Assembly: GCA_963751275.1 (NCBI GenBank)
Contig: CAVVTZ010000007.1
Coordinates: 832,001-896,000, forward strand
From: an uncultured Gemmatimonadaceae bacterium
Lineage (GTDB): Bacteria; Gemmatimonadota; Gemmatimonadetes; Gemmatimonadales; Gemmatimonadaceae
Length of the DNA stretch: 64,000 nucleotides
Direction: 5' to 3'
The notes below the pieces were generated by a model. That model was given only the letters and a program-made list of their open reading frames with translations. It was not told the DNA's origin and made no database searches. Shown here piece after piece: positions 1,678 through 25,767 of the stretch (within the stretch, counting starts at the first letter, position 1; each line of letters opens with the position of its first letter). The translations under genes were made by a program, and so were the position numbers.

Positions 1678-1840
1678 AACGACGCGTGTAGGGACAAGTA
1701 CCGCTCGAGGGGCGCGTCTGGGAGGCAGCGTGTGGTACGGCTCGGCGGGAGTAGTACGCCGTTCCACTCCCGCCGAGCCGTACCACACGCTGCCTCCCAG
1801 ACGCGCCCCTCGAGTGGTACTAGGGCCCACTCGCGCCCTT
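1678..1840. repeat. Family-A ~160 bp palindromic element, copy 1
   Basis: Arms 1697-1752 and 1766-1821 are near-perfect reverse complements around a 13-nt loop, with imperfect outer arms. Confidence 0.95.
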
Positions 1841-1874
1841 GACAATGAGCTCATTTAAATATAGATATAAGTCT

Positions 1875-2219
1875 ATGAAAGACAGCGAGACGATCAAGGC
1901 GCTGAAGGCGATCGCGCATCCGACGCGCTTCCAGATGGTGCAGGAGGTGGCGGCGGCGGGGGAATTGACGTGCGGGCAGCTGGGTGACCGGTTCAAGCTC
2001 GCGCAGCCGACGATCTCGCATCATCTCAAGCTGCTCGCCGACTCGGGCGTGCTGCTGATGCGGCGCGAGGCGCAGCACGGGATCATCACGGTGAACCGGG
2101 CGCTGGTGGCCGAGCTGCTCGGCTCGCTGCCCGAGCGGCTGGCGCCGGCGACGCCGGCGGCGCCGCGGGCCGCGGCGCGGCCGCGCAAGACGCCGGCGCG
2201 GGGGATGCGCGGGCGCTGA
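1875..2219 (+). CDS. ArsR/SmtB-family transcriptional regulator
   Basis: ALKAIAHPTRFQM...LAQPTISHHLKLLADSG. AT-rich upstream region with TTGACA at 1839-1844. Confidence 0.9.
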   Translation: MKDSETIKALKAIAHPTRFQMVQEVAAAGELTCGQLGDRFKLAQPTISHHLKLLADSGVLLMRREAQHGIITVNRALVAELLGSLPERLAPATPAAPRAAARPRKTPARGMRGR

Positions 2220-2306
2220 TCATCACGCGGGGTTCAACAAGGCCGGGGTGTTCCCGGTTGTTCGATACATTCCTATATCCAGATACTTCAACGAGAGGAT
2301 GTTCCC

Positions 2307-2852
2307 ATGGCACCGTCCCAATGGCAGTTCGACACGTCGCACGCCACCATCGGCTTCAGCGTGCGCCACATGATGGTCTCCAAGGTCCACGGCCAGTTCA
2401 CCAAGTGGTCGGGGCAGTTCAACTTCAATGACCAGGACCCCACGGCGTCCACCGCCGTCGTCGAGATCGACGTCAACAGCATCAACACCAACGAGCCCCA
2501 GCGCGACGCGCACCTCAAGTCGCCCGACTTCTTCGATGTCGCGAATCATCCCGTCATGACCTTCCGCAGCACGAAGATCGAGCGGCACGGCGCGGACTAC
2601 CGCGTTTCCGGCGACCTGACGATCCGCGGCACGACCCGCCCGGTGGTGCTCGTCGCCGAGTTCATGGGCGCGATCGTGGACATGCAGGGCAACGACCGTG
2701 CCGGCTTCTCGGCGAAGGGCTCGATCGACCGCAAGGAGTTCGGCCTGACGTGGAACATGCTCCTCGAGGCGGGCGGACTGGCGGTCGCGGACAAGGTGGA
2801 GATTTCCTTGGAGTTCGAAGCGGTGCGCGCAAAAGCGGCTGTTGCGGCCTAA
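2307..2852 (+). CDS. yceI: YceI-family (polyisoprenoid-binding) protein
   Basis: FSVRHMMVSKVHGQF, RDAHLKSPDFFDV, GDLTIRG, IDRKEFGLTWN. Confidence 0.93.
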   Translation: MAPSQWQFDTSHATIGFSVRHMMVSKVHGQFTKWSGQFNFNDQDPTASTAVVEIDVNSINTNEPQRDAHLKSPDFFDVANHPVMTFRSTKIERHGADYRVSGDLTIRGTTRPVVLVAEFMGAIVDMQGNDRAGFSAKGSIDRKEFGLTWNMLLEAGGLAVADKVEISLEFEAVRAKAAVAA

Positions 2853-2853
2853 A

Positions 2854-3003
2854 TGCGCGTGTAGCTACTAGTACCGCTGAAACAGCGCGTCTGGGAGGCA
2901 GCGTGTGGTACGGCTCGGCGGGAGTGGAACTACTCACGCATCGCCGTACCACACGCTGCCTCCCAGACGCGCTGTTTCAGCGGTACCAGGCCCTACACGC
3001 GCA
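2854..3003. repeat. Family-A palindromic element, copy 2
   Basis: Fills the whole gap between two convergent stop codons. Arms tgcgcgtgtag...ctacacgcgca. Confidence 0.95.
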
Positions 3004-3004
3004 G

Positions 3005-3460
3005 TCAGTCGGTAGGAGGCGTCCCATCGAGGAACATGGAGACCCCTCCGTGCTTGGCACATGCACCATTGTGCTGGTGCGCGTGCGAGTAGGTGCCGTC
3101 CTTGCACTTCGCGGTGGCGCCGGCGGCCGTCGCGTTCGTGACGTCACCCGCGGCTTCCTTCTCGGCCGCCTTCGCGCCCTTGCCGGCATCCTCGGCGGCC
3201 TTCGAAACGGTCTTGCTGGTGTTCTTCGCGGCGATCTCCGTTGCCGTGCCCACCTTTTCGGCGCCGGTCTTGGCGTTCTTCATCTTCGTGGCATTCTTAT
3301 CCACGCCGCCATGCTCGGAGCAGCGGTACTCTCCGGTGGCGGTGGTGGTCGTGCCGTCCTTGCAGACCGTCACCTTCGCGTCCTGCGCGACGAGCGCGGC
3401 CGGCGCGGTGGCGGCCATGAACGCGGCCATCGCGGCCGCGAGAAGCGTGCGATGCGACAT
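3005..3460 (-). CDS. Secreted DUF3761-like protein with two C-K-D-G...C-x-x-H-G-G-V modules
   Basis: AAGGAGGT RBS before ATG 3460. Signal peptide, then CKDG...CSEHGGV and CKDGTYSHA...GACAKHGGV. Confidence 0.8.
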   Translation of the reverse strand: MSHRTLLAAAMAAFMAATAPAALVAQDAKVTVCKDGTTTTATGEYRCSEHGGVDKNATKMKNAKTGAEKVGTATEIAAKNTSKTVSKAAEDAGKGAKAAEKEAAGDVTNATAAGATAKCKDGTYSHAHQHNGACAKHGGVSMFLDGTPPTD

Positions 3461-3522
3461 GTGAACCTCCTTGTCCGTGGAAAGACAATCGAACAAGCCG
3501 TACGAACAGGGTATACACCGGA

Positions 3523-4440
3523 ATGGAGCCCATCGGTCCCGGTGATCGGCCGCGTCGCGGCGTGATCACGTGCGTGCGCGGCCATCGCCCAATCGCGATC
3601 GCCGCGGCCGCGCTGGCGCTCGCATCGCGCGGGATGGCGCAGGTTCCGGCGCGCGACAGCACCGCGGCGCGCCGCTGGGAGATCGCCGTCGAGGCGCGCG
3701 GCGGCGTGCCGTCGGGGACGGTGCAGGTGCGGGAGAACGCGGTGGCCGGCACTCGCTTCACGCTCGGCAGCGGGCTGGATGTGCGCGCGCTGTGGGCCGC
3801 CGGCATGGAGCTCGACTACCGCCCCGATCCGCGCACGCGTCTCTCACTCGAGCTCACGAGCTTCGGCCTCTCGGGCACCGTGACTCCCGCGCAGGAGACC
3901 TATTTCAACGGCACCACGCTCGCGGCGGGCAGCCCGCTCACCACCGCGACGACATTCCCGCACTATCTCGCGGCGACGTTCACCTTCGCGCGGCGCGTTT
4001 CGCGGATCGGCGGCGGCGAGCTCAGCGCGACGGCGGGATTCTCCTTCGTCGCGCTCACGTTCGTGCTGCACGGCACGCTTGCGCCCGGCAGCGCGACGCG
4101 CGAGACGCAGGAGGATTTCGTGACGCAGGAGCTGCCGGTGCCTGAGCTCGGCGTGGCGTATGACGCGCCGCTCGCCCACCGCATGGCGCTGGATATGCGG
4201 CTCACCGGCGGATGGCTGCCGTGGGTGAACAGTCTGCGCAACGAAGGGGGCGTGGTGACGATCACGCAGACCGCCGTGCAGCTCGCCACCACTGTGCGCT
4301 ATGCCCTGACTCCCGCGCTCGGCGCCACGGGCGCGGTGCGACTTTCGTCCTTCTCGCAGAACGAGCAGAGCGGGGAGGACGGCAATCAATTCTCGATGCG
4401 GGCGATCACGGTGGGGATCGGGTTGGCGCAGCGATTCTGA
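3523..4440 (+). CDS. Hypothetical protein, possibly an outer-membrane beta-barrel (start uncertain, perhaps near 3574)
   Basis: Signal-peptide-like N-terminus, alternating beta-strand pattern, C-terminal Phe. Confidence 0.6.
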   Translation: MEPIGPGDRPRRGVITCVRGHRPIAIAAAALALASRGMAQVPARDSTAARRWEIAVEARGGVPSGTVQVRENAVAGTRFTLGSGLDVRALWAAGMELDYRPDPRTRLSLELTSFGLSGTVTPAQETYFNGTTLAAGSPLTTATTFPHYLAATFTFARRVSRIGGGELSATAGFSFVALTFVLHGTLAPGSATRETQEDFVTQELPVPELGVAYDAPLAHRMALDMRLTGGWLPWVNSLRNEGGVVTITQTAVQLATTVRYALTPALGATGAVRLSSFSQNEQSGEDGNQFSMRAITVGIGLAQRF

Positions 4441-4455
4441 CGCGACGGCCCTACC

Positions 4456-4610
4456 AACCGCGTGCATGGGAACTAGTACCGCTTGAACAGCGCGTCTGGG
4501 AGGCAGCGTGTAGCACTGCTCAGCGGGAGTAGTACCAATCACGCCGAGCCGTACCACACGCAGCCTCCTAGACGCGCTACTCAAGCGGTACTAGTTCCTA
4601 CAGGCGCCGT
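4456..4610. repeat. Family-A palindromic element, copy 3
   Basis: ggaactagtaccgcttga...tcaagcggtactagttcc with the shared core. Confidence 0.93.
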
Positions 4611-4685
4611 CGGGAGGAGTTACCGCACGCCGGCGTTCTTGGTCCGCTATACGGAGCCCGAAGAGACCCTTCAGCCCCTGCTCGG

Positions 4686-6062
4686 ATGCCCGCTCCCGCT
4701 CGGTCCACGGCGCGCCGCCTCGCGACGATCGCGGGGCTCGCCGTCATTTACTTTGTCGCGGCCAAGCTTGGCCTGCGCCTGGCGTTCGTGAACGCGAGCG
4801 CGACCGCGGTGTGGCCGCCCACCGGCATCGCGATCGCCGCGGTGCTCCTGCTCGGAACCGACGCGTGGCCTGCGATCTTCATCGGGGCGTTCGCGGTGAA
4901 CATGGCCACGGCGGGGTCCATCTTCACGTCGCTCGGGATCGGCGCCGGCAACACGCTCGAGGCGATCGCAGGCGCGTGGCTCGTGAACCGGTACGGCGGC
5001 GGGCGCTCGAGCTTCGAGCATCCGGAAGGCGTGTTCCGCTTCGCCCTGTTCGCCGGATTGGTCGCCACCGTGATCAGCCCCACGATCGGCGTCACCGGCC
5101 TCGCGCTGGCGGGCTTCGCGAGGTGGCCGGACTTCGGCCGCATCTGGATCACCTGGTGGCTCGGCGACGCGGTGGGCGCGCTGCTCGTCGCGCCGGTGAT
5201 CCTGTTGTGGAACAAGTGGCCGAGATCGTGGTGGAGCCCGGCCCGGGTGCGCGAGGCGGCGGCGATGTACATCACCCTCGTGGGGATCGGGGCGCTGGTG
5301 TTCGGCGGATTCTTTCCGACCGACGTGAAGGATTATCCACTCGAATTCCTGTGCCTGCCACCGCTCCTGTGGGCGGCGTTCCGCTTCGGCTCACGCGAAG
5401 CGGCGACCGGGATGCTCTTGCTGTCGGGGATCGCGGTGGTGGGCACGCTGCTCGGCTACGGACCGTTCGTGCGCGAGACGCAGCACGAATCGCTGCTCTT
5501 GCTGCAGACGTATGCCGGCGTCGTGTCGGTGACGACGCTCACGCTGGCGGCGGTGGTGGCGGAGCGCAGCCGGCTGGAGGGGCAACTGCGCGTGCTGTCG
5601 GTGACCGATCCGCTTACGGGCCTGGCGAACTATCGATTGCTGATCGAGCGGCTCGTGGCGGAGATCGCGCGCGTGGAGCGCACGGGGCGGCCGTTCGCGC
5701 TGCTCATGGCGGATGTGGACGATCTCAAGAAGATCAACGACCGCCACGGCCACCTGACGGGGAGCCGCGCGCTGGTGCGGGTGGCGGAGGCGCTGCGGAG
5801 GTCCAGCCGGAGTACGGATACGCTCGCGCGATACGGCGGCGACGAGTTCGCGCTCATCCTGCCGGAGACGGACGAGCGCGCGGCCCAAGCGGTGGCGGCG
5901 CGCATCGGCAGCCTGCTCGCGGACGACACGGAGGAACCGCGCGTGACGCTGAGTGTGGGAGTGGCAATGTACGCGGAGAGCGGCGTGACGGCGGAGGCGA
6001 TGCTCGCCAACGCGGATTCGCGGATGTATGAGATCAAGTCCGCTCGAAAGGCGACGGCATGA
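4686..6062 (+). CDS. MASE1-domain diguanylate cyclase
   Basis: Multi-TM N-terminus with VWPPTG and WWLGDAVG. TDPLTGLAN, KKINDRHGH, RYGGDEF. Confidence 0.93.
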   Translation: MPAPARSTARRLATIAGLAVIYFVAAKLGLRLAFVNASATAVWPPTGIAIAAVLLLGTDAWPAIFIGAFAVNMATAGSIFTSLGIGAGNTLEAIAGAWLVNRYGGGRSSFEHPEGVFRFALFAGLVATVISPTIGVTGLALAGFARWPDFGRIWITWWLGDAVGALLVAPVILLWNKWPRSWWSPARVREAAAMYITLVGIGALVFGGFFPTDVKDYPLEFLCLPPLLWAAFRFGSREAATGMLLLSGIAVVGTLLGYGPFVRETQHESLLLLQTYAGVVSVTTLTLAAVVAERSRLEGQLRVLSVTDPLTGLANYRLLIERLVAEIARVERTGRPFALLMADVDDLKKINDRHGHLTGSRALVRVAEALRRSSRSTDTLARYGGDEFALILPETDERAAQAVAARIGSLLADDTEEPRVTLSVGVAMYAESGVTAEAMLANADSRMYEIKSARKATA

Positions 6063-6219
6063 ACGGCGCGAGAAGGGCCTAGTAACGCTCGAGGGGCGCG
6101 TCTAGGTGGCAGCGTGTGGTACGGCTCGGCGGGAGTAGTACCAATCACGCCGAGCCGTACCACACGCTGCCTCCCAGGCGCGCTTCTCAAGCGGTACTAG
6201 TTGCTACACGCGCCGTTCA
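6060..6219. repeat. Family-A palindromic element, copy 4
   Basis: tgaacggcgcg...cgcgccgttca. The terminal TGA and TCA are the stop codons of both convergent flanking genes. Confidence 0.95.
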
Positions 6220-6705
6220 GGTCGTCGGTGGTTTCTTCATCCAGAACTCGACTCCCCCGTGCTGCGCGCAGGCGCCTTGGCTCTGCGTCGCGTGCGAGTA
6301 TGAAGCGTCCTTGCACTTGGCGGTCGCGTCAGCGGAGACATTGTTCGTCTTGTCGCCGGCCACTTCGGCCACCGTGCCCTTGGCGGTCTTGCCGACATCC
6401 TCGGCGCCCGTCGAGACGGCGTCACCCGTCTGGCCCGCCGCCTTCTTGACCGTCTTGCCGGTGTTCTCCGCCGCGATGTCCGTCGCGGCCGCCGCCTTGT
6501 CCACGCCGGTCTTCGCGTTCTTCATCTGGGTCGCGTTCTTGTCCACGCCGTGGTGCTCGGAGCAGCGATACTTGCCGGTGGCCGTGGTGGTCGTGCTGTC
6601 CTTGCAAACGGTGGTGACCGTGGGGGGCTTGTCCTGCGCGGCCAGCGTGAACGGCGCGACGAGGAAGGCGGCCACGGCCGCCGCGAGGAGCGATCTATTA
6701 TGCAT
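6217..6705 (-). CDS. Secreted DUF3761-like protein, paralog of 3005-3460
   Basis: Shares TTTTATG.YRCSEH.GVDKNAT.MKNAKTG and ATAKCKD..YSHA...GACA.HGGV with the first paralog. Confidence 0.8.
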   Translation of the reverse strand: MHNRSLLAAAVAAFLVAPFTLAAQDKPPTVTTVCKDSTTTTATGKYRCSEHHGVDKNATQMKNAKTGVDKAAAATDIAAENTGKTVKKAAGQTGDAVSTGAEDVGKTAKGTVAEVAGDKTNNVSADATAKCKDASYSHATQSQGACAQHGGVEFWMKKPPTT

Positions 6706-6730
6706 GAGGAGCCTCAGGATCGATTGTGGA

Positions 6731-6750
6731 TATTGTACATCTGTACAATA
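6731..6750. promoter_or_regulatory. Putative operator (perfect 9-bp inverted repeat)
   Basis: TATTGTACA-tc-TGTACAATA, 25 bp upstream of ATG 6705. Confidence 0.5.
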
Positions 6751-6784
6751 AGAAGCTATGTCGTGACGCGCAGCGCCGCTTGAT

Positions 6785-6950
6785 TGAACGGCGTACCTAG
6801 GGCCTAGTACCGCTCGAGGGGCGCGTCTGGGAGGCAGCGTGTGGTACGGCTCGGCGGGAGTCGAAAGGCGAACCACTCCCGCCGAGCCGTACCACACGCA
6901 GCCTCCTAGACGCGCCTTTCAAGTCGTACTAGTGTCTACACGCGCCCTCA
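6785..6950. repeat. Family-A palindromic element, copy 5
   Basis: Shared core ctagtaccgctcgaggggcgcgtctgggaggcagcgtgtggtacggctcggcgggagt and its inverted copy. Confidence 0.95.
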
Positions 6951-6962
6951 CGGAGGACCCTC

Positions 6963-7511
6963 ATGATCCGAGTGATGATCACTGCCGCGCTCGCCCTTGC
7001 GTTCGCGACGATGCCCAGGCAGGGGATGCGGTATCCGCTGAGCCAGCGTGGCAGCGTGGGGCAGACCGTCGCGTTCACCACCATCGAGATCACGTATGGT
7101 CGTCCCTTTGCGCGGGGGCGCACGTTGTTCGGCGCTGGGGCGGTGGTGAAGTTCGATCGCATCTGGCACCCGGGCGCCGATTCGGCGACGCGCATCACCT
7201 TCGATCATGACGTCGAGATCGAAGGGAAGTCCGTGAAGGCGGGAGAGTACTCGATCTGGATCATGCCGCAGGACAGCGCGACGTGGCAGTTCATCCTCAA
7301 CCGGAAGGCGCACGTCTTCCACACGCAGTATCCGGGGGAGTCGAACGACGCGCTGCGCGTGCCGATCCACACCGAGCGCGGCGCGTACCTCGAGACGCTG
7401 ACGTACTATTTCCCCGTGGTGGTGCGCGACAGCGCGACGCTCCGGTTGCAATGGGGAGAGATGATCCTGCCGGTGCGGATCGTGGCGCCGTATGCGCCGC
7501 CGGGGAGCTAG
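6963..7511 (+). CDS. DUF2911-like exported protein
   Basis: SQRGSVGQTV, ITYGRP.ARGRTLFG, W.PGAD.AT, GEYSIW. GGAGG RBS. Confidence 0.8.
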   Translation: MIRVMITAALALAFATMPRQGMRYPLSQRGSVGQTVAFTTIEITYGRPFARGRTLFGAGAVVKFDRIWHPGADSATRITFDHDVEIEGKSVKAGEYSIWIMPQDSATWQFILNRKAHVFHTQYPGESNDALRVPIHTERGAYLETLTYYFPVVVRDSATLRLQWGEMILPVRIVAPYAPPGS

Positions 7512-8128
7512 GCCGGGATCCGGAAGGCGCAGCTGGGCCGCGCGCCGTGCGCGCATCGCTGCTGCACCCGGCGGCCGGTCTGCGTCTCGAGCATCGATTC
7601 GACGATCGTGCAGGTGGCGGGCACCTTGGCCACCGCGGCCGCGAGCGGACAGCCTTCGCCCCGGATGTCCACGTGCGACTTGGCACGCGTGACGCGCACC
7701 GCGCCGCCCAGCGCGGTGAGGACGCTGCGCGCCGTGGCCGTGCACGAGGCGAGTGACGCGGGCCGGCGGGCCGGCGTGGCGAGATGCCGGCCGGCGTCAC
7801 GGAAGGCCGCGCGCAGGGCGGGTCCGCTCAGGCGGGCCGCGAGCACGGCGACGAGCGCCTCCAGCGCCGGCGCGTAGGCTCGGGAGAGCGCGACGTCGGC
7901 CTGCAGGGTGACCTCGTATTCCACCGCGGGCTTCCCCGCGACGCCCGTGCGCACGGTGCCACCGGCGCGCACGAGCCCGGCGCGCTCGAGCGCGGCGAGG
8001 TGGCCGCGCACGGCGTTGTCGGTGACGCCGAGCGCGGCGGCGAGGTCGTTCACCGTGCACGCGCCGGCGCGGAGGGCGGCGAGAACGCGGCGCCGGTGCG
8101 GCGTGAGCGCGAGGGCAGCGGGGGGCAT
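7508..8128 (-). CDS. Winged-helix transcriptional regulator (COG2345/SufR-like, C-terminal Cys cluster)
   Basis: TVNDLAAALGVTDNAVRGHLAALERAGLV, G.GKPA..Y, and CPL...C...C...C at the C-terminus. Confidence 0.8.
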   Translation of the reverse strand: MPPAALALTPHRRRVLAALRAGACTVNDLAAALGVTDNAVRGHLAALERAGLVRAGGTVRTGVAGKPAVEYEVTLQADVALSRAYAPALEALVAVLAARLSGPALRAAFRDAGRHLATPARRPASLASCTATARSVLTALGGAVRVTRAKSHVDIRGEGCPLAAAVAKVPATCTIVESMLETQTGRRVQQRCAHGARPSCAFRIPA

Positions 8129-8256
8129 GGGAGGAATATAGGGCGCGTTGATAAGTAAACAAGAAATATGACATATCACGAGGCCGCGGCTCATCTCGAC
8201 GGGTCCAGCGCCGCCCCTCGTTGATCCAGCAGGAAATCCCCACACCGCCATTGCGC

Positions 8257-10077
8257 TCAGGCCGTTCTCCGCCGCAGCCGCCGCATCCTCCGCCGAAAGA
8301 GCCGCAACTGCGCGACCACCTGGCCCGCCTCGCGCACCTGCTCGTCGTCGCGCAGTTCGCTCCAGGCGGTCGCGATCGCCGCGCCGTCGATCATCCCGAG
8401 CAGCTTCTCCGGCTCCTTGCGGCTCACCACCGGCAGCTGCTTGACACCGTGCGACAGCATCGTGCTCATGGCCTCATCCAACAGCTCCTCCGGATGCGCG
8501 ACCACAAGGCGCAATGTGCCCACCTCGAGCGCGGTCGGCTCGGCGTCGTGCGAAGCCGCGGCCGCGCGCGACAGATCGCCCCGCGTGAGGATGCCGGCGA
8601 GCGCGCCTTGGTCCGTCACGAGGGGCCACGCGTGCACCCGGCTCAGCACCGGATCCTCGTGCAGCAGGCGGCGGAGGAGGGCGTCGATGTGCATCGCGGC
8701 CGGGACCACGGTGTCCGCCGGGCGCATCACGTCCTCGACGCGGAAGAGCGCGAGCGGGTTGACGGCGTACTCGCGCAGCACGTGATGCCCGCGCCGCGCG
8801 ACCTTCTCGGTGAGGATCGATCGCCGCATGATGAGCACGGTGACGGCGTGCGCGGCGGCGCACGCGAGCAGCAGTCCGCCGATGAGATTGATGTCGTGCG
8901 TGAGTTCGAGCAGGAACACGATGGCAGTGAGCGGCGATCGCATCGTGCCGCCCATCACGGCCGCCATGCTGATGATCGCCCAGACTCCCGGATCGCCGCC
9001 CGGCAGCACGGGGGCCTCGAGCGCGCCGAGCGCGCCGCCCATGATCAGCAATGGCGCGAGCACGCCGCCGGACGTGCCCGAGCCGAGCGCCACGGCCCAC
9101 ATGATCGCCTTCGCGATGAGGAGCGCGAGCACGACGCCCCCAACGAGATTCCCCGCGAAGAGATCGCGGATCACGTCGTAGCCGACGCCGAGCGCGCGCG
9201 GCGCGATGAGGCCGCCCACGCCGACCACGATCCCGCCGATCGCCGGCCACCACATCCAGTGGATGGGCAATTTCATGAAGCCGTCCTCGCACGCGTAGAC
9301 GAGCGCGGTGAGCAGCGCGGCGGCCAGTCCCGCCGCGACGCCCACGACGAGCGCGGCGCCGAGCCCCCCAGCGGGGAGCGCATCGTGCTGTGCACGGGGA
9401 AGACCGCGCCCGCGCCGAGCAGCGGCACACGCAGTGCGGCGCCGACGGTCGCGGCGATCGCGACCGGCACCAGGCTGCGCGGCTTCCATTCGAACAGCAG
9501 CAGTTCGACGGCGAGCAGCACCGCGGCGACGCGGCGCGGCGAAGATCGCGGCCATGCCGGCGGCGGCGCCGCCACCAGCAGCGTCTTCCGCTCGCTGTTC
9601 GAGAGATGGAACGCCTGCGCGAAGACCGATCCGAGTGCGGCGCCGGTCATGATGATCGGCCCCTCGGCGCCGAACGGTCCGCCCGTGCCGATCGCGATCG
9701 CCGAGGAGAGCGGCTTGAGGATCGCGACTCGCGCGCTCAGGCGGCTCTGCCCGATCAGGATGGATTCCATGCGCCTCGGGGATCCCGTGGCCGCGGATCT
9801 TCTCGGAGCCGTATCGTGCCAGGACCCCGATGATCAGCCCGCCCACCACCGGCACGCCGACGGCCCACAGGCCGAGGTGATTGCCGCCGGGCGTGAGGTC
9901 GGTGGCGGCGAAGCGGTGGAAGTACGCGATGGACGTGATGAGCGCGATCAGCCGGACCAGCACGGCCGCCGCGAGCGCGCCCATCGCGCCGATGACCGCT
10001 GCCATCGCCGCGATGAGCAGCATGCGCGGGCGGGCGGTGAAGTCGCCGAGCCGGTCGCGGGCGTGGGAGACGGACAT
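8257..10077 (-). CDS. ClC-family chloride channel/antiporter with CBS domains (apparent indels near 9770, 9550 and 9390)
   Basis: GHGIPE, GGPFGAEGP (in the alternate frame 9273-9770), GTSGGVLAP, C-terminal CBS pair. Confidence 0.88.
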   Translation of the reverse strand: MSVSHARDRLGDFTARPRMLLIAAMAAVIGAMGALAAAVLVRLIALITSIAYFHRFAATDLTPGGNHLGLWAVGVPVVGGLIIGVLARYGSEKIRGHGIPEAHGIHPDRAEPPERASRDPQAALLGDRDRHGRTVRRRGADHHDRRRTRIGLRAGVPSLEQRAEDAAGGGAAAGMAAIFAAPRRRGAARRRTAAVRMEAAQPGAGRDRRDRRRRTACAAARRGRGLPRAQHDALPAGGLGAALVVGVAAGLAAALLTALVYACEDGFMKLPIHWMWWPAIGGIVVGVGGLIAPRALGVGYDVIRDLFAGNLVGGVVLALLIAKAIMWAVALGSGTSGGVLAPLLIMGGALGALEAPVLPGGDPGVWAIISMAAVMGGTMRSPLTAIVFLLELTHDINLIGGLLLACAAAHAVTVLIMRRSILTEKVARRGHHVLREYAVNPLALFRVEDVMRPADTVVPAAMHIDALLRRLLHEDPVLSRVHAWPLVTDQGALAGILTRGDLSRAAAASHDAEPTALEVGTLRLVVAHPEELLDEAMSTMLSHGVKQLPVVSRKEPEKLLGMIDGAAIATAWSELRDDEQVREAGQVVAQLRLFRRRMRRLRRRTA

Positions 10078-10586
10078 CAGCGTACGGGGCGCCGCTTGCG
10101 CGGCTCCTCGAACATCAGTGCGGGCTCGCGCGGAGCGAGTTTCATCGTGCGGGCGAGCGCGGCGAGGCCGCGGGCGAGCGCCCGGGCCTGGGCGGGGGTG
10201 AGGCGCTCGATTCCCAGGACAAGCTGTGCCAGCGGCGGCGCCGGCGCATGCCGCACCAGCTGCCGGCCCGCGGAGGTGACCGTGACGAGCACGCGCCGGC
10301 GATCGGTGGACGCTCGCACTTTCGAGACGAGGCGGCTGGCGACGAGGCGGTTCACCACCGTGGACACGGTGCTCTGGTCCGTGCGCGCGCGCTCGGCGAG
10401 CGCGTTCACCGTGAGCGGCCCCTCCTCGGAGAGGCGCTGGAGCAGGAAGAGCTGGGCGTTCGTGATGCCGGTGCGGTGCTCCACCGTTCGGGCGGAGCGC
10501 CGGAGCGTGTCCACGAGCAGGCGGAGGTGGGCGAGCGATCGCATCCGGTCGGCGCGGAGGGCAGGGGAGGCGGGGGAACGTTTCAC
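10077..10586 (-). CDS. MarR-family regulator
   Basis: GITNAQLFLL, LAERARTDQSTVSTVVNRL, DRRRVLVTVT. Overlaps the clc start. Confidence 0.88.
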   Translation of the reverse strand: MKRSPASPALRADRMRSLAHLRLLVDTLRRSARTVEHRTGITNAQLFLLQRLSEEGPLTVNALAERARTDQSTVSTVVNRLVASRLVSKVRASTDRRRVLVTVTSAGRQLVRHAPAPPLAQLVLGIERLTPAQARALARGLAALARTMKLAPREPALMFEEPRKRRPVR

Positions 10587-10625
10587 GCGAGCAGGTGTCG
10601 GAATGGTAATGAGCGCCGGGGCGAC

Positions 10626-10649
10626 ATATATATTGACATCAATATATAT
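10626..10649. promoter_or_regulatory. AT-rich 11-bp inverted repeat containing TTGACA; probable operator in the marR/pal divergent region
   Basis: ATATATATTGA-ca-TCAATATATAT. Confidence 0.6.
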
Positions 10650-11366: not shown

Positions 11367-11440
11367 CTCCCGAGGAGGGACTCGAACCCCCGACCTAGTG
11401 ATTAACAGTCACCCGCTCTGACCAGCTGAGCTACTCGGGA
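11367..11440 (-). tRNA. tRNA-Asn (GTT)
   Basis: TCCCGAG acceptor stem, TAGCTCAG.TGG D-arm, GTGAC-TGTTAA-TCAC anticodon arm, GGTTCGAGTCC T-arm. CCA is not encoded. Confidence 0.96.
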
Positions 11441-14381: not shown

Positions 14382-14393
14382 GCTTTCAAGTTA

Positions 14394-14479
14394 ACTACAG
14401 ACTTGGACTCTAGACTTAGACTTAGAAGGCGGGAAAAGGCGGTAGTCTAAAGTCTCAGTCTAGAGTCCAAGTCTGTAGT
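14394..14479. repeat. Family-D palindrome with hexamer-repeat arms, copy 1
   Basis: actacagacttggactctagact...agtctagagtccaagtctgtagt, with a 23-bp perfect outer stem. Confidence 0.9.
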
Positions 14480-16614: not shown

Positions 16615-16783
16615 ATAACGGCGCGTCTAGGCCCTAGTACCGCTTGAGCAGCGCGTCTGGCAACTGAGCGTATGGTACACCGAAGCGTGAGTCGCGCTGT
16701 TCCTACGCGCGCAGCGGTTTACCATACGCTGCCTTGCCAGACGCGCTGCTCAAGCGGTACTAGAGGCCTAGACGCGCCGTTAT
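16615..16783. repeat. Family-A palindromic element, copy 6 (diverged core)
   Basis: ataacggcgcgtctagg...cctagacgcgccgttat. Fills the gap between convergent genes and includes the TAA of the downstream gene. Confidence 0.92.
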
Positions 16784-19043
16784 TTCGTCCCGATCCGTTT
16801 CACCAGATCAGCGTACCTCGGATCCTTCCGCAGGGGCTCGTACGATGGATCGAGATGCAGGTACAGCAGGCCCGCCGACCGGTCCTGGTACGCGCGTTCG
16901 AGCGAGGCGAACGCGCGGTCGAGGTCGCCCATGGCCGCGTAGCCCATGGCGAGGACTTCGCCGCGCACGTACTGCTTCTGCGACTCGTCCTCGAGCCGCG
17001 CGAGAATCGCCTCCGCTTCCTCGCGGCGACCGAGCGCGGCCAACGCGCGCACGATCATCGCGTCGTACGAGCGAACGGGCGTCTCGAGGCCTGCGCGCGC
17101 CGGTACCACGTCGAGCGCCGTCTCGGCGTCGCCCATGCGCGAGGTGCGCCGAGCCGATGTAGAGCGGGGCGCGGAGGAGATCCTCGTCCAGCTCGATCGT
17201 CTTCTCGCCCTGCGCGATCGCCGCGTCGTAGTCCCTGCGCGTACAACAGGAATCGCGCGAGCCACTCGCTGTATGCGACCGAGAGCGGGTCGAGCGAGCA
17301 GCGCCTTGCGCATCGTCTCGATCCCGTCGTCCAGCCGCCCGACGCGAGGCAGCACCGATGCCGAGCACGTAGTGCGCTTCGGCGTAGTTCGGGCTCAGCG
17401 TCACGGCGCGCGCGAGCTGCTGCTCGGCGCTCCGCGAAGTTCCACTCGTGCCAGCACGAGGACCTTGCCGATCGAGGTGATCGCGTCGGCGAGTTCGGGG
17501 TCGCGCTGCAGCGCGCGCTCGGCGGCACGCCTTCGCCCGCGGGTAGGCGTCGTCGGGCGCCACCCAGTCGTCGGCGAGGTTGCACCAGACGTCGGCGATC
17601 CCCGCGTACGCGCGGGCGAAGCGCCGGATCCTGCAGCAGCGCGTGCTGGAAGAGATCGAGCGCCCTGCGCAGCCCGGGCTCCGTGAACTTGTTGAAGAAG
17701 AAGCGGCCCTTCAGGTAGAGCGTTGTACGCCTCGAGATTCTTCGTGGGCGACGACGAGCGGCGCGTCGTCGCCGCGCCAGGCGGAGCTTGAGCGCCTCCA
17801 CGATCGCGCGGGAGATCTCGTCCTGGATGGCGAACACATCCTCGAGCTGCCGGTCGTAGCGTCTCCGACCAGAGGTGATAGCCGTTCTCCACGTTGATCA
17901 GCTGCGCCGTGATGCGGATGCCGGTTGCCCGACCTTGCGCACGCTCCCCTCGAGCACGGACGCCGACGCCGAGCTTCTCGCCGATCTGCCGCACGTCCAC
18001 GTCCTTCCCCTTGAAGGCGAAGGAGCGACGTGCGCGAGGCGACCTGGATGCCGGGCACCTTGGCCGAGCGCGTTGATGATCTCCTCGGTCATGCCGTCGC
18101 TGAAATACTCGTTCTCGGGATCGGCGCTCATGTTCGCGAGCGGAAGCACGGCGATCGCCTTGGGCGCGGCGCTGCTCATGTCGCGGGGTGCGCTGCGGGC
18201 GCGGTGCCGCGTCGCGGCGATGGGCGCAGCGCCTCGGCGAACTCGGCCGCGGTCGGGATACCGGTCCACCGGCGTGCGCGCGAGCGCGCGAGTGACCGCG
18301 TCGTCCACCGCTTCCGGGCACGTCGCGCGTCGTTCGCACCTTGGGGATGGGCGAGACGAACCGCTTCGCGATGATCGCCTGCGGCCGTCGGGCCGGTGAA
18401 CGGCGGCTCGCCGGCCAGCATCTCGTAGAGCACGCAGCCGAGGCTGTAGAGATCGCTGCGGCCGTCGATCCGGCTCTCGCCGCGCGGCCTGCTCCGGGCT
18501 CATGTACGCCGGCGTCCCCATCGCCATGCCGGTCTGCGTGATGCGAGCCCTCGCTGCTCAGCGCCTTGCCGATGCCGAAGTCGGCGACCATCGCCGCGCC
18601 CTCGTGGAGCAGGATGTTCTCCGGCTTGATGTCCCGGTGCACCACGTCGTGGCGGTGCGCGTAGTCGAGCGCCGAGGCGACCTCGCGCGTGATCTGCAGC
18701 GCGTCTCGAGCGGCAGCTGCCGCTCCGCGTCGAGCCGCTCGCGCAGCGAGCGCCCTTCCATGTTCGGCATCACGTAGAAGAGCAGGCCGTCGGCCTCGCC
18801 GGAGTCGAACACCGGCAGGATGTGCGGGTGCGTGAGCCCCGCCGCCATCTTGATCTCGCGCAGGAACCGCTCGGCGCCGATCTCGGCCGAGATCTCGGGG
18901 CGCAGCACCTTCAGCGCCACCTGGCGGTCGTGGCGGAGATCGTGCGCGAGGTACACGATGGCCATGCCGCCCTCGCCGAGCTCGCGGTCGAGGGTGTAAC
19001 GGCCCGCGAGGGCGGGAGAGAGGCGGCTTTGCAGGGGATTCAT
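16780..19043 (-). CDS. Hanks-type Ser/Thr kinase with TolB-like and TPR regions, broken by many indels
   Basis: [66 protein letters not shown] and TPR-like fragments spread over several frames. Confidence 0.88.
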
Positions 19044-19089
19044 CGCGCCGTAGAGATGCATCGCCACGCATGACGTGGCGAGTGGCCAG

Positions 19090-19239
19090 TTCCTGCTGGA
19101 CCAACGAACGGCGACGTTGGACGTTAGCCTGCGTGGAACGTGAGAGTGGGGCTGGTAACGACACGTGTCGTCCCAGCCCCACTCTCAGCATCTACGCAGG
19201 CCCAACGTCCAACGTCGCCGTTCGTTGGTCCAGCAGGAA
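19090..19239. repeat. Family-B ~150 bp palindrome (single copy in window)
   Basis: ttcctgctggaccaacgaacggcgacgttggacgtt...aacgtccaacgtcgccgttcgttggtccagcaggaa, with centre acgacacgtgtcgt. Confidence 0.92.
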
Positions 19240-19266
19240 TTCCCTACTCCGTCGTTGCGAGAGTCG

Positions 19267-19716
19267 TTAGTGCTTCGCCCACGCCCAGCCGGTCATCTTC
19301 CACCCACTCGCTCCCTTCGCGAGCGAGATCGCGAGGATCGAGTTGGTCTCCTTCACCGGCTTGCCGTTCCTCTTGTACACATAATTCGCCGGCGTGACCA
19401 TGTACGCGACGTCGCCCGTGACATCGACGTGGGTGGGCTTGCCAAGCGTCACCACGGGATCCGTGATCTTGTTCTTCTCGGCATCGGCGTTGAAGGCGTT
19501 CGCCCACGCCGTGCAGGCATTCGCGCCCGACCAGACGTGCGGCGGGAATTCGTCGATGATCACCATCGGTGACGCGCAGGCGGCGGCCATCGCCGTGGTG
19601 TCGCCGGCGTTGAAGGCCACGACGAATTGCTTCACCGTCGCGACCACGTCGGCTTGGTCGGTGGGGGCGGGTGCCATGAGGAGAGCGGCGGCAGCGATCG
19701 TGAGAACTGTCTTCAT
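19267..19716 (-). CDS. Exported NTF2-like (SnoaL/DUF4440-type) protein
   Basis: Signal peptide, FV.AFN.GD, IIDEFPPHVW.G, L.K...GWK. Confidence 0.75.
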   Translation of the reverse strand: MKTVLTIAAAALLMAPAPTDQADVVATVKQFVVAFNAGDTTAMAAACASPMVIIDEFPPHVWSGANACTAWANAFNADAEKNKITDPVVTLGKPTHVDVTGDVAYMVTPANYVYKRNGKPVKETNSILAISLAKGASGWKMTGWAWAKH

Positions 19717-19750
19717 CGTTGCTTCATGCTCCTTGATTGGTTGGGGGATC

Positions 19751-19912
19751 AGGGCGCGTGTGGGTCCTAGTACCGCTTGAACAGCGCGTCTAGGAGGCAG
19801 CGTGTGGTACCACTCGGCGTGAGTGGCACGCCGTACGACTCACGCCGAGTGGTACCACACGCCGCCTCCTAGACGCGCCGCTCAAGCGGTACTAGGGCCC
19901 ACAGGCGCCGTT
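19751..19912. repeat. Family-A palindromic element, copy 7
   Basis: Shared core, with compensatory variants gtaccactcggcgtgagt / actcacgccgagtggtac. Confidence 0.95.
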
Positions 19913-19920
19913 CGCAGCGA

Positions 19921-20403
19921 TCACAGGTACCGCGCGACGGCCATCGCGAGGATCGCGACCATCAAGAGCGCGGCGACCGTACGTCCGCCCCGCTGCAGCT
20001 TGTCGAACAGCGCATTGACCTCAGCGGCGGGCGGCGGGCCGCCAGACGACATGAGGGCGGTGATCTTCTTCGCGTTCGGCTTGACCATGAGCATCCCGAC
20101 GGCCAGCGCAGCGAGCGCCGCAACAGCCCCCACACTGTATCCCATCGCCGGACGTGAGTGCACCCAGTCCGGTCCGCCGGCGGTCGAGTCCATCCAGAAA
20201 AGGATGAATCCCGTGAGGATCGTGAGTCCCGCGCCCGCCGAGATGATCACGCTGTACTTCCGTTTCATGATCCCCATCATGACGCCGCCGCCACCCGCGC
20301 CCGCGTCGCGCACGGCGGGCTCGATGAAGAAGGCAAACACGACCACGGCGCCGAACCAGTAGGCGCCGAGGACGACGTGGAGGGCTTTGAGCACAATGAG
20401 CAT
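19921..20403 (-). CDS. Hypothetical 4-TM membrane protein
   Basis: Four hydrophobic segments, LH...G..W.G N-terminal motif, GAGGAG RBS. Confidence 0.75.
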   Translation of the reverse strand: MLIVLKALHVVLGAYWFGAVVVFAFFIEPAVRDAGAGGGGVMMGIMKRKYSVIISAGAGLTILTGFILFWMDSTAGGPDWVHSRPAMGYSVGAVAALAALAVGMLMVKPNAKKITALMSSGGPPPAAEVNALFDKLQRGGRTVAALLMVAILAMAVARYL

Positions 20404-20412
20404 CGGATCTCC

Positions 20413-21633
20413 TCAGTGAAGGGAATCGAGGACCATCTTCGGGTCCAGCGCGACCTTGCGCGCCGTGAACACCCGGAACCAGCGCGCAGATTTATACAGC
20501 TTGTCGCTCAGGACCGGAAGGTCGATCGCGCCGGCCATCCCCGCGGCGGTGAGGCGGATGACGGAATCGTCGCGCATCAGCACGGGGAGATCGAGCGAGA
20601 GCATTTGCGTCTTCGCGGGGTAATCGAGCAGCAGTTCGCCCGGCGCGAGGCCGGCGGCGCTCGCCGAGTTGCTCCTCGGCGGCGCGCACGCGGTCGCGAT
20701 CGGTGGCGATCCAGTCGAGGTCGCGCCCCTCGAGCGAGGCGGCCGGCGTCTCGAAGGCGCGCTTGTAGAGGCGGCGCATGCGGATCGCGGCGAGGAGCGG
20801 GTTCGGCGTGCCGGATTCCAGCGCGAAGAGGAGGCCTTCGTCGGTGATAGCGCACGAGGGACGCGGCGTCGAGCGTGTGCGCGCGCAGCGCATCCTCCAC
20901 GAGGCGCTTGTACATCGCGGTGGCGCTGCGCACGGCGTGGTGCCAGTAGACGTTGCGGTACATCTGGTACTTCGCGAAGAGCAGCGATTCGAGCGCGCTC
21001 AGCGCCTTGGCGCGCACGCCGGTCACGGTGCGATTCGTCGTGGGGTCGGCGAGCAGCACGATCGCGAAGATCAGGCGGTCCTCGTCGATCTCGCCGTACG
21101 GGACGCCGCACATCTTCGCGTCGCGCTTGAGATAGTCGATCTTGTCCAGATCGAGCGAGCCGGAGATCAGCCCCTGCAACGGCGACTGGCTCTTGCCCTG
21201 GATGAGCGCCATCACGCGCGCGGGCGCCTCGGCGCCGTATTCCTTGCGCAGGATCGCGGCCACCTCGCCGCCGGTGATCAGGTCGCGCGCGACCTCCTCG
21301 TGGTGCGCCACGCCGATCTCCTCCAGCGCGTGGCAGAAGGGGTAGTGCCCCACGTCGTGCAGCAGCGCGGTGGCGGCGACGATCGCCGGCTCATCGGCGG
21401 CCACGCCGGCCGAGCGCGCCCGCTTCGCCGAGGGCGTGGAGCGTGCGCTTCGCGAGATGGTACGCGCCCAGCGCGTGTTCGAAGCGCGAATGCGTGGCGC
21501 CGGGGTAGACGAGATGCGCGAGCCCCAGCTGCCGCACGTAGCGCAGCCGCTGGAGCGCGGGCGTGTCGATGAGCTGCCGGGCGACCGCGTCCACACGGAT
21601 GTTGTTCCAGAGTGGATCGCGGATGGTGGTCAT
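20413..21633 (-). CDS. HD-domain phosphohydrolase (dNTP triphosphohydrolase-like), several indels
   Basis: [53 protein letters not shown]. Confidence 0.88.
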
Positions 21634-21646
21634 CGCCGCGGCGCCG

Positions 21647-23271
<1,625 letters not shown>

Positions 23272-23320
23272 GATCGGATCCTGCGAGTCGAGGTCTATGA
23301 AGGCGGCGCGGATGCGCCGG

Positions 23321-25568
23321 CTATTTGCGTGACTGCGCGTCCACGACGGCCACGGCCGCCATGTTGACGATGCTCTGCACATCGCACCCGGCTTCCAGCA
23401 CGTGCACCGGGAGCCGCATGCCGACGAGGATCGGCCCGATGGCCGTCGCCCCGCCCAGCTCTCTCAGTAACTTGTACGCGATGTTGCCCGCGCTCAAGTT
23501 CGGGAAGATCAATACGTTGGCCGGCCCATTGAGCAGGCTGAGCGGGAACTGCGCGTGCAGCTTCTCCTCGTTCATCGCGAGATCGGCCTGCATCTCGCCG
23601 TCCACCACCAGGCTGGGGTCGCGGTGGCGGATGAGATTGACCGCGGCGGCCACGCGCTCGGGCTCCTCGTCCTTCACCGAACCGAAGTTCGAGAAGGAGA
23701 GCATCGCGATCCGCGGCTCGATGCCGAGCGTCCGGAGCAGCTTGCCCGCCGAGATCGCGATGTGCGCCAGCTTCTCGGCGGTGGGCGCGATCGTGACGGT
23801 CGTGTCGCCGCAGGAACACGGTGTGCTTCTCGAACACCAGCATGTAGAAGCCGCTCACGAGGCCGCCCTTGGGGTGCGCGCCGATCACTTCGAGCGCGGG
23901 GCGGATCGTGGCCGGATACTGCTGCGTGACGCCGGAGACGAGCGCATCGGCGTCGCCGAGCGCGACCATGAGACTGCCGAAGTAGTCCGGGTCACAGACG
24001 CGCTCGCGCGCCTGCGCCTCGGTCATGCCTTTGTGCTTGCGCCGCTCGAGCAGGTACTGCGCGAACGCCTCGCGTTTCGAGGCATCGGCCGGATCCTCGA
24101 GGGTGAGTCCCTCGAGGGAGATGCGCACCTCGGAGGCGGTCCGGCGGATCGCTTCAATGTTGCCGAGGAGCACCGGCTCGGCGATCCCTTCGTCGAGCAC
24201 GATGCGGGCGGCTTTGATGATCCGTTCGTCCTCGCCCTCGGGGAAGACGACGCGGCGCGGGTCCTGGACGGCCTGGTTGATGAGGCCGCGCATGATGCCG
24301 CGCGCGCGGCTGAGGCGCGATTCCAGGAGCGCGCGGTAGTCGCCCGCGTCGATGATGACGCGCGCGACGCCGCTGGCGACGGCGGCCCACGCGACGGCGG
24401 GGGCGACCCAGAGCAGGACGCGCGGGTCGAAGGGGAAGGGGATGAGATAGTCGCGCCCGAAGGCGATGTTCTTGAGGCCGTAGAGGCGCGAGACCGAGTC
24501 GGGCACGGGCTCGCGCGCGAGCGCCGCGAGGGCGCGGGTGGCGGCCATCTTCATCTCCTCGGTCACCTGGGTCGCGCGCGCGTCGAGCGCGCCGCGGAAG
24601 ATGAAGGGGAAGCCGAGGAGGTTGTTGACCTGGTTCGGGTAGTCGCTGCGTCCCGTGGCGACGATCGCGTCGGGGCGCGCGGCGAGCACTTCGTTGGGGA
24701 GGATCTCGGGGGTCGGGTTCGCGAGGGCGAAGACGATCGGGTCCGGCGCCATCGCGGCGATCATGGCACCGGTGATCACGCCGCCGCGCGAGAGGCCGAC
24801 GAAGACGTCGGCGCCGCGCAGCGCTTCGGTGATCGTGCGCATGTCCGTGGCGCGCGCGAAGCGCGCCTTGTACGGGTCCATCTCGATCGTGCGGCCCTCA
24901 TAGACGACGCCGTGCACATCGCACATGGTGATGTGCTCGCGCGCAACGCCGAGGCGGACATAGTGTTTAGCCGTAGCAATGGCCGCGGCGCCGGCGCCGG
25001 AGAAGACGACGCGGACCTGGTCGATCTTCTTCCCCACGATCTCGAGCGCGTTGAGCAGCGCGGCGCCGGAGATGATCGCGGTGCCGTGCTGGTCGTCGTG
25101 GAAGACGGGGATCTTGAGCGTGCGCTTGAGTTCTTCCTCGATGCGGAAGCAGTCGGGGGCGCGGATGTCCTCGAGGTTGATCCCGCCCACGGTGGGCTCG
25201 AGCATCTGGCAGAAGCGGATCACATCCTCGGGATCCTCGGCGTTCACTTCGATGTCGAAGACATCGATGTCGGCGAACTGCTTGAAGAGGTTCCCTTTGC
25301 CTTCCATCACCGGCTTGCCGGCGAGCGCGCCGATGTTGCCGAGTCCGAGCACGGCGGTGCCGTTGGTCACGACCGCGACGAGATTGCCGCGCGCGGTGTA
25401 GGTGTACGCATCGTCGGGATTCGCCTGGATGGCGAGGCACGGCTCGGCGACGCCCGGGGTGTACGCGAGGGCGAGGTCCCGCTGGTTGTTGAGCGGCTTG
25501 GTGGGGACGACCGCGATCTTGCCGGGCCGGCCACTGCTGTGATAATCGAGGGCGTCCTGTTTCTTCAT
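23321..25568 (-). CDS. maeB: NADP-dependent malic enzyme with PTA-like C-terminal domain, indel near 23810
   Basis: [60 protein letters not shown]. Confidence 0.95.
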
Positions 25569-25608
25569 CCTACGGAAAGTTACTCGCTTGCGACGGGTTC
25601 TCCTACCT

Positions 25609-25767
25609 ACGGCGTCTGTGGGGCCTAGTACCGCTTGAACAGCGCGTCTAGGAGGCAGCGTGTGGTAGTGCTCGGCGGGAGTAGCACGCCGTACAACTCA
25701 CGCCGAGCCGTACTACACGCAGCCTCCTAGACGCGCCCCTCGAGCGGTACTAGGCCCCACACGCGCC
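25609..25767. repeat. Family-A palindromic element, copy 8
   Basis: gtggggcctagtaccgc...gcggtactaggccccac. Confidence 0.95.

What the first reader, a model, noticed from the sequence alone, without database searches (positions are those of the whole stretch)
1678..25767. Eight-copy ~160 bp hairpin family with compensatory changes between arms and no mobilizing gene in view
Seen: copies at 1678, 2854, 4456, 6060, 6785, 16615, 19751 and 25609, all intergenic. Consensus arm is roughly AACGGCGCGTGTRGGNNCTAGTACCGCTYGA..RGCGCGTCTRGGAGGCAGCGTGTGGTACGGCTCGGCGKGAGT, then a ~10-13 nt loop, then the reverse complement. Copies differ from each other while pairing is kept within a copy: ctcgagggg/cccctcgag (copy 1), ctgaaacag/ctgtttcag (copy 2), cttgagcag/ctgctcaag (copy 6), and gtaccactcggcgtgagt/actcacgccgagtggtac (copy 7) versus gtacggctcggcgggagt/actcccgccgagccgtac (copy 1). 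Most ends carry GTAG or GTGG near the terminus. Known: GT(A/G)G heads mark REP/REPIN elements mobilized by HUH-family RAYT transposases. Inference: a non-autonomous hairpin element or structured RNA, maintained by selection on structure or by arm-to-arm conversion. The ~70-bp arms are much longer than typical REPs.
Basis: partly seen in the sequence, partly recalled or inferred. Interest (0 to 1): 0.82.

Follow-up and report, generated by a model that had tools for sequence, protein, structure and literature searches.

The report
Gene-less hairpins overwritten at gene junctions
About forty long DNA hairpins sit at gene junctions in this bacterium, have the same arms as a hairpin that encloses a small four-helix-bundle gene, and differ wholesale between related species at the same junctions, so they are likely a repeat family that gets copied over in place without any known transposase.

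Summary
The eight hairpins are real. The genome holds 40 full copies. One pair of the same arms encloses a four-helix-bundle gene (PF05635/TIGR02436, S23p/Avd fold), found at that same site in four other records. All 6 such genes in the genome have their own arms and their own gene-less hairpin family. No RAYT, reverse transcriptase, target duplication or Rfam match was found; attC tests failed.
Shown here: (1) At 12 of 13 junctions shared with relatives both arms carry a different block; orthologous copies are no closer than non-orthologous ones (0.711 vs 0.715). One junction holds four different arm families in five genomes. (2) Stop codons abut the element edge (22 of 46). (3) Central spacers cluster in 7-nt steps (53 of 103). 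(4) Arm-to-arm matching is significant here, weak or absent in relatives, with no G-U strand bias, so it is probably copying, not RNA selection.
It behaves like REPIN-RAYT but is not a member. The mobiliser is inferred, not shown. The scan noted such cassettes before (67 notes, at least 65 genomes); ten paper searches found no description.

The parts
1678..1840 (.). Hairpin copy 1 (type A core), between divergent PP2C-phosphatase and ArsR genes; relatives hold a different short hairpin (G002, G005; seen by eye) or none (G004)
2853..3005 (.). Hairpin copy 2 (type A); stop codons of yceI and of the convergent gene end exactly at its two edges; type B copy after yceI in G002 and G004, another family in G005
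4456..4610 (.). Hairpin copy 3 (type A); junction is short and has no hairpin in G002, G004, G005 and in one contig of run X2
6060..6217 (.). Hairpin copy 4 (type A); overlaps the TGA of the GGDEF gene and abuts the convergent gene's stop
6787..6948 (.). Hairpin copy 5 (type A), divergent junction; type B copy with extra 30-nt modules in G002 and G004, remnant in G005
16615..16782 (.). Hairpin copy 6, the one mixed B/A-like copy; abuts two convergent stop codons
19751..19912 (.). Hairpin copy 7 (type A)
25609..25767 (.). Hairpin copy 8 (type A), upstream of the malic-enzyme gene; four different four-helix-bundle arm families occupy this junction in five genomes

Best explanation
The hairpins are gene-less copies of the inverted arms that enclose one four-helix-bundle (S23p/Avd-fold) gene elsewhere in the genome, and they are likely copied into gene junctions, over whatever hairpin was there, with that protein as the predicted sequence-specific helper. 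Shown: same arms around the gene; one repeat family per such gene; whole-element turnover at shared junctions; registration to stop codons; 7-nt spacer steps; no RAYT, RT or target duplication found. Inferred: the protein (relatives are pentamers) binds its cognate arms as single-stranded nucleic acid in about 7-nt steps. Strand cutting would come from host recombination or repair enzymes, or from a co-resident GxxExxY (PD-(D/E)XK family) protein that is packaged in similar AAC-ended arms. Replacement would proceed by gene-conversion-like copying. Matching changes in the two arms would come from recent copying or template switching, not from selection on pairs. The host likely tolerates or uses any long hairpin at these transcript ends, which would keep the site occupied while the sequence changes (untested).
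For: Arms around PF05635/TIGR02436 gene at G000:C10:15323-16029; fold matches 2RLD and 2GSC best, Avd more weakly. Same gene and arms, next to rsmI or trxA as read from neighbouring ORFs, in L047, L101, L102, L116. 32 of 36 PF05635 loci in the genus (3 of the 4 misses cut by contig ends) and 12 of 13 more distant loci have inverted arms. Each of 6 genes in G000 has its own two-armed gene-less family: 18, 7, 44, 19, 41, 21 loci. Type A block in both arms of 32 of 38 parsed G000 copies, 0 of 58 relative copies; 12 of 13 shared sites are A in G000 and B in relatives. Orthologous arm identity 0.711, non-orthologous 0.715, within-genome 0.795 (20 of 21 pairs scored). Copy-8 junction matches arms of L047, L032, L050, L026 in four relatives. 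22 of 46 inward stop codons end at the element edge. Spacers peak at 34, 41, 48, 62, 69 nt; 53 of 103 in one class mod 7, while arms show no lag-7 autocorrelation (0.23 vs 0.28 shuffled). Overwriting at fixed sites is reported for REPINs (bioRxiv 10.1101/2024.10.14.618302, Results and Discussion read).
Against: No activity of the protein was tested and it has no known catalytic role. The cassette in G000 has type B arms while most G000 copies are type A, so the sweeping variant does not match the one cognate cassette found (genome 83% complete). The filled cassettes' spacers (535, 557) are off the 7-nt ladder. A second family shows 6-8-nt steps rather than clean 7. The automated test that other families prefer the same junctions was underpowered (Fisher p 0.09). 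No base-exact empty site was recovered. G002, G004 and G005 are close kin, so counts across them are not independent. Only 3 of 10 GxxExxY loci clearly have arms.
Confidence: 0.55

Rival explanations
1. Host-only concerted evolution. The hairpins spread and homogenise by ordinary homologous recombination, gene conversion and template switching, and the four-helix-bundle gene is a passenger whose loss from the loop seeds each family.
For: Arms are mosaics of a limited set of short alleles. Chimeric and nested hairpins occur (G000:C3:26.9 kb, G005 after yceI). Template switching homogenises inverted-repeat arms (PMC8604942, start of abstract in listing only). No catalytic partner is tied to the arms.
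Against: It does not readily explain replacement by unrelated families at one junction, one family per gene in 6 of 6 cases, 7-nt steps without 7-nt sequence periodicity, or a shared AAC-N-R-C end in 26 of 70 arm ends across families (5.4% background, not independent).
Confidence: 0.25
2. Integron attC-like sites. The hairpins are single-strand substrates of an integron integrase, left at gene ends by cassette insertion, so genes between them move as cassettes.
For: G000 encodes an integron integrase over the TIGR02249 cut-off. Ends are AAC-rich and overlap stop codons. Gene content next to hairpins often differs between species.
Against: RYYYAAC (consensus recalled) at both ends in 0 of 40 copies, AAC at both ends in 7 of 40. 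The two attC-like sites beside the G005 integrase have a different architecture and are not matched by the family model; the 40 kb held one weak 14-bit hit elsewhere. No integrase over cut-off in G001-G005; G005 has a broken one. In three gene-content differences inspected, the extra segment was not bounded by two family hairpins.
Confidence: 0.07
3. True REPINs or MITEs moved by a RAYT or other transposase that is unassembled or lost.
For: Extragenic, two inverted arms, variable centre, genus-restricted, overwritten in place like REPINs. GTAG/GTGG in 56 of 80 arms. Genomes are incomplete.
Against: No Y1_Tnp in 6 of 6 genomes including single-contig G005. No internal REP palindrome. No target duplication. 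IS110 in 1 of 6 and rve in 3 of 6 genomes, none with these arms. The only gene found between these arms is the four-helix-bundle gene.
Confidence: 0.07
4. A structured non-coding RNA or terminator family kept by selection on base pairing, with compensatory mutations.
For: Very stable fold; 14 of 66 pairs with two-sided changes; enrichment between convergent genes, 17 of 40 against 12% of junctions.
Against: No G-U bias on the transcribed strand (33 vs 42); own-partner excess absent in G002 and G005 and marginal in G004. Orthologous copies keep no site-specific ancestry. Unrelated hairpins fill the same junctions. Some RNA-level role of 'any long hairpin' is not excluded.
Confidence: 0.06

Closest known systems
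REPIN-RAYT systems (bioRxiv 10.1101/2021.07.10.451892, abstract and part 1 of 4 of the Introduction read; bioRxiv 10.1101/2024.10.14.618302, passages, Results and Discussion read)
   Same: Extragenic two-armed hairpins with a variable centre; several families per genome, each with a cognate sedentary gene; the occupant of an orthologous site changes over time.
   Different: No RAYT or HUH protein found; arms of about 75 nt lack the short internal REP palindrome; the cognate gene is a four-helix-bundle protein placed in the hairpin loop; spacers vary in 7-nt steps.
ORF-bearing intervening sequences of 23S rRNA encoding S23p (Coxiella, Leptospira; PMC4990558, abstract and passages read)
   Same: An S23p/PF05635 ORF in the loop of a stem formed by terminal inverted repeats; unknown mobility, with the ORF as a proposed mobility factor.
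   Different: Between protein-coding genes, not in rRNA; arms about 80 nt against a 28-bp stem; dozens of gene-less copies; RNase III excision untested.
Avd of diversity-generating retroelements (PMC10053308, passages read; PDB 4DWL, 8UBE)
   Same: Related four-helix-bundle fold (Foldseek probability 0.99-1.0 but E 0.4-0.6); Avd assists template-directed overwriting of a target repeat.
   Different: No reverse transcriptase in 5 of 5 genomes searched; invariant adenines remain in the arms; no TR/VR pair seen.
Integron attC sites (features recalled)
   Same: Long imperfect hairpins whose AAC end overlaps an upstream stop codon; an integrase is present in G000.
   Different: Core consensus not met, no fixed extrahelical bases seen in the arm alignment, dispersed among housekeeping genes, no orientation bias.
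ERIC/IRU, Correia and RUP miniature elements (recalled, no call)
   Same: Dispersed 100-200-nt hairpin-forming repeats close to stop codons.
   Different: No TA or other target duplication; a cognate four-helix-bundle cassette exists.

Membership tests
REPIN-RAYT | Cognate RAYT (Y1_Tnp, HUH) in the genome | tested here: not met
   0 of 6 genus genomes, 63-89% complete
REPIN-RAYT | Each arm contains a short REP palindrome | tested here: not met
   5 single arms fold no better than shuffles, z -1.6 to +2.4
REPIN-RAYT | Extragenic inverted doublet, variable spacer, many copies | tested here: met
   40 full copies between genes, loops 4-46 nt
REPIN-RAYT | Cognate gene sedentary, and sites overwritten over time | tested here: met
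   Gene at one site in 5 records; turnover at 12 of 13 shared sites
ORF-bearing rRNA IVS | S23p/PF05635 ORF inside a terminal-inverted-repeat stem | tested here: met
   Filled copy G000:C10:15323-16029; the window copies lack the ORF
ORF-bearing rRNA IVS | Located in a 23S rRNA gene | tested here: not met
   Neighbours are protein-coding genes
ORF-bearing rRNA IVS | Excised from RNA by RNase III | not testable with these tools
   No RNA holder listed
Integron attC | RYYYAAC / GTTRRRY cores at the two ends (recalled) | tested here: not met
   0 of 40; AAC at both ends 7 of 40
Integron attC | Matches the attC sites of the resident integron array | tested here: not met
   No family hit at the G005 attC-like sites or beside the G000 integrase
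Integron attC | Recombined by IntI | not testable with these tools
   Needs an assay
MITE (DDE type) | Target-site duplication | tested here: not met
   No excess for 2-8-nt repeats at 10 end offsets in 40 copies; old copies may have lost it
MITE (DDE type) | Autonomous transposase with the same ends | tested here: inconclusive
   None at 7 IS110/rve loci; IS630, IS5 and other families and ISfinder were not searched
DGR | Reverse transcriptase | tested here: not met
   0 of 5 genomes; G003 not searched
Rfam RNA family | Score at or above gathering threshold | tested here: not met
   Only a tRNA in the window; sub-threshold generic hairpin hits

The most novel reading that the evidence does not exclude
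S23p/Avd-fold proteins are the specificity factors of a transposase-free class of repeat replicators. Each protein recognises its own arms, measures single-stranded nucleic acid in 7-nt steps, and drives copy-over of its hairpin onto existing hairpins at stop codons, possibly with a GxxExxY nuclease. Families would then compete for a fixed set of gene junctions, much as REPINs do.
Probability: 0.35. Interest if true: 0.9.

Novelty: new variant of a known kind. Interest (0 to 1): 0.72.

Why it matters
PF05635 proteins have solved structures but no known function, and how rRNA intervening sequences move is described as open (PMC4990558, passages). How REPINs are overwritten at fixed sites is also unexplained (REPORTH preprint). 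This family links the three: a cognate gene, about 40 targets, a diagnostic A/B block that marks conversion, and a 7-nt ruler. Each gives a direct assay. If the protein drives the copying, it is a sequence-directed DNA-rewriting activity outside the known transposase families. If not, it is still a clear case of whole-element concerted evolution at gene ends.

Tried and rejected
Rfam at gathering and E-value thresholds: nothing relevant. RAYT, RT, IS110 and rve searches: no partner. Target duplications: none. attC reading: considered seriously after finding an integrase, rejected on core motifs and on the integron's own sites. G-U strand bias and within-copy one-sidedness (p 0.18): negative. 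Sequence heptamer periodicity in arms: none. Automated 'other family at the same junction' test: underpowered, p 0.09; its threshold missed short heptamer hairpins. Ladder test on other families: 6-8-nt steps in one, unclear in two, no usable pairs in one. Viral contigs: 17 short pattern matches, none a family copy (one 11-bit partial hit). Sequencing runs: no RNA holder listed; two DNA runs with 5-6% of words; the letters of the bridged junction could not be read. Earlier scan notes by sequence: nothing; by 'concerted conversion' words: nothing. Ten paper searches found no description of the dispersed cassette; the library lacks most subscription papers and no supplements were read. No covariance model, R-scape test, tree or complex prediction was run.
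Full report
OBSERVATION. The eight copies are present where stated and the five quoted arm pairs are exact reverse complements. Copy 7 folds at z -18.8. A profile from the eight copies finds 53 loci in the window's genome G000 (3.12 Mb, 83% complete), 40 of them full copies of 152-194 nt. BLAST with copy 7 finds the family in 3 of 5 other genomes of the genus and 0 of 35 more distant ones. The two genus misses, G001 and G003, are fragmented assemblies. The closest homologues of the associated protein come from Gemmatimonadaceae records (78-80% identity), so the host is likely of that family. Rfam has no match.

ANATOMY. Each arm is about 75 nt: an outer 30-nt module, which is sometimes repeated, then an inner part. 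Conserved blocks alternate with variable blocks drawn from a small set of alleles. One block comes in two forms that differ by several substitutions and one indel, called A and B here. GTAG/GTGG occurs in 56 of 80 arms but inside the edge, and single arms do not fold on themselves, unlike REP units. With my own dicodon gene calls (imperfect), 17 of 40 copies lie between convergent genes against 12% of all junctions; 15 are tandem and 8 divergent. Of 81 arms scored, 46 face an inward-pointing gene; 22 of those stop codons end 15-17 nt from the anchor block, which is the element edge, and 42 end within 10-33 nt. Stop-like triplets also occur at many edges where no gene ends, so they may be part of the element end. 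No target duplication was found. The distance between the inner cores peaks at 34, 41, 48, 62 and 69 nt: 53 of 103 copies fall in one class modulo 7 and 81 within one base. Among the 12 long G000 spacers 6 do (p 0.004). The arms show no lag-7 autocorrelation. Copies share ancestry, so these counts overstate independence.

THE COGNATE GENE. At G000:C10:15323-16029 one left and one right arm enclose a 141-aa ORF. It scores over the cut-offs of PF05635 and TIGR02436. Its model (pLDDT 91) matches S23-family structures 2RLD and 2GSC best and Avd more weakly. The same gene with the same arms sits beside rsmI or trxA (names read from neighbouring ORFs, not from a scan) in G005 (L047), in two further genomes (L101, L102) and in a metagenome contig (L116). 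It is therefore sedentary. This packaging is general: 32 of 36 PF05635 loci fetched from the genus and 12 of 13 more distant loci have inverted arms; 8 of the 38 matches were not fetched. Each of the six genes in G000 has its own gene-less two-armed family (18, 7, 44, 19, 41 and 21 loci). Three of 10 GxxExxY (PF13366) loci have arms of yet another family. An AAC-N-R-C motif lies at 26 of 70 arm ends across families against 5.4% background (paired and orthologous arms are not independent).

TURNOVER IN PLACE. I fetched 40 regions around listed copies in G002, G004 and G005 and mapped flanks to G000. Of 101 full copies, 96 parsed: G000 has A in both arms in 32 of 38, B in 5 and one mixed; relatives have B in 58 of 58. 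At 12 of 13 shared sites G000 is A and the relative is B. Orthologous arms are 0.711 identical, non-orthologous cross-species arms 0.715 and within-G000 paralogues 0.795; the true orthologue ranks from 1 to 38 of 38 (20 of 21 pairs). Where a relative has the family at a syntenic junction, G000 has it in 14 of 15 cases, against 40 of 2699 junctions overall. At the copy-8 junction G004 has type B, and G002, G005 and G001 have hairpins matching the arms of three other four-helix-bundle genes. An automated test of this cross-family sharing was underpowered (p 0.09), so it rests on individual cases. The copy-3 junction has no hairpin in G002, G004 and G005 (54-56 nt against 232-234) and in one contig of run X2 (73 against 235). 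Either copies are converted in place, or the same junctions are filled repeatedly; the data do not separate these.

'COMPENSATORY' CHANGES. In G000 an arm resembles its own partner more than other copies' arms (0.851 vs 0.780, p 0.0002), but not in G002 (p 0.59) or G005 (p 0.56) and marginally in G004 (p 0.034). One 6-nt block is identical in both arms in 12 of 38 G000 copies (0.9 expected) and 5 of 58 relative copies (5.3 expected). Mismatches show no G-U excess on the transcribed strand (33 vs 42 in 13 copies). This fits recent copying or template switching better than selection on RNA pairs.

MOBILISER SEARCH. No Y1_Tnp in 6 of 6 genomes and no RVT_1 in 5 of 5. IS110 occurs in 1 of 6 and rve in 3 of 6, without these arms. 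All genomes are incomplete. G000 has an integron integrase, but the family fails the attC core test (0 of 40), does not match the attC-like sites in G005, and no integrase over cut-off was found in the relatives.

MECHANISM. I commit, at 0.55, to a REPIN-like system in which the four-helix-bundle protein is the specificity factor and host or co-resident enzymes do the cutting. The link between hairpins and cassette arms is shown directly. The role of the protein, the 7-nt ruler reading and any GxxExxY involvement are inferred. The main weakness is that the sweeping A form does not match the B-armed cassette found in G000. The main rival is host-only concerted evolution (0.25).

COMPARISON AND NOVELTY. 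It works like REPIN-RAYT, including overwriting at fixed sites (REPORTH preprint, Results and Discussion read; Bertels and Rainey preprint, abstract and part 1 of the Introduction), but fails two defining features. The filled form has the layout of an ORF-bearing rRNA intervening sequence (PMC4990558, abstract and passages) outside rRNA. PF05635 resembles Avd (PMC10053308, passages). Ten searches of the held library found no description of the dispersed system; supplements and most subscription papers were not seen. The scan itself has noted gene-in-hairpin cassettes in at least 65 genomes, including this one; these are unchecked AI notes, and I had reached the cassette reading before seeing them. 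Word searches returned no note holding all the terms for in-place conversion or a spacer ladder. Verdict: real; new variant of a known kind; interest 0.72.

Noticed in passing
window 43234-43324 and 44426-44516: Two hairpins of a GACAGGAT-type family; similar arms enclose GxxExxY (PF13366) genes at G000:C7:943 kb and 952 kb and in G005.
   Followed up: partly
window 63671-63984: Arm plus three tandem inverted units of the family that flanks the four-helix-bundle gene at G000:C9:573 kb.
   Followed up: partly
window 14392-14479, 32676-32763, 59098-59269, 61299-61335, 699-724: Heptamer-type arms or hairpins matching the arms of other four-helix-bundle genes.
   Followed up: partly
window 19075-19250: Another long hairpin, about 175 nt, of a family also seen near copy 7's junction in G002 and G005.
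   Followed up: no
window 47527-47618 and 47794-47885: 92-nt arms, 96% complementary, around a 175-nt spacer; unrelated to this family.
   Followed up: no
window 3005-3460 and 6217-6705: Paralogous small genes without NCBIfam match, each next to hairpins; gene order around copies 2-5 differs from that in G002, G004 and G005.
   Followed up: partly
G000:C9:726.7-728.8 kb (L003): Integron integrase with cassette-like ORFs downstream in the same orientation, at a contig end; the site after the first ORF is only an 18-nt core pair. G005 has a broken integrase with two attC-like sites.
   Followed up: partly
G000:C9:673171, C11:42361, C13:20096: Heptamer hairpins of another family that begin and end with the same core motifs as the attC-like sites in G005; a possible link between these cassettes and integrons.
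   Followed up: no
G000:C9:644986-645154: Three head-to-tail 45-nt units related to the arm, between convergent genes.
   Followed up: no
window 11367-11440 (-): tRNA gene.
   Followed up: no
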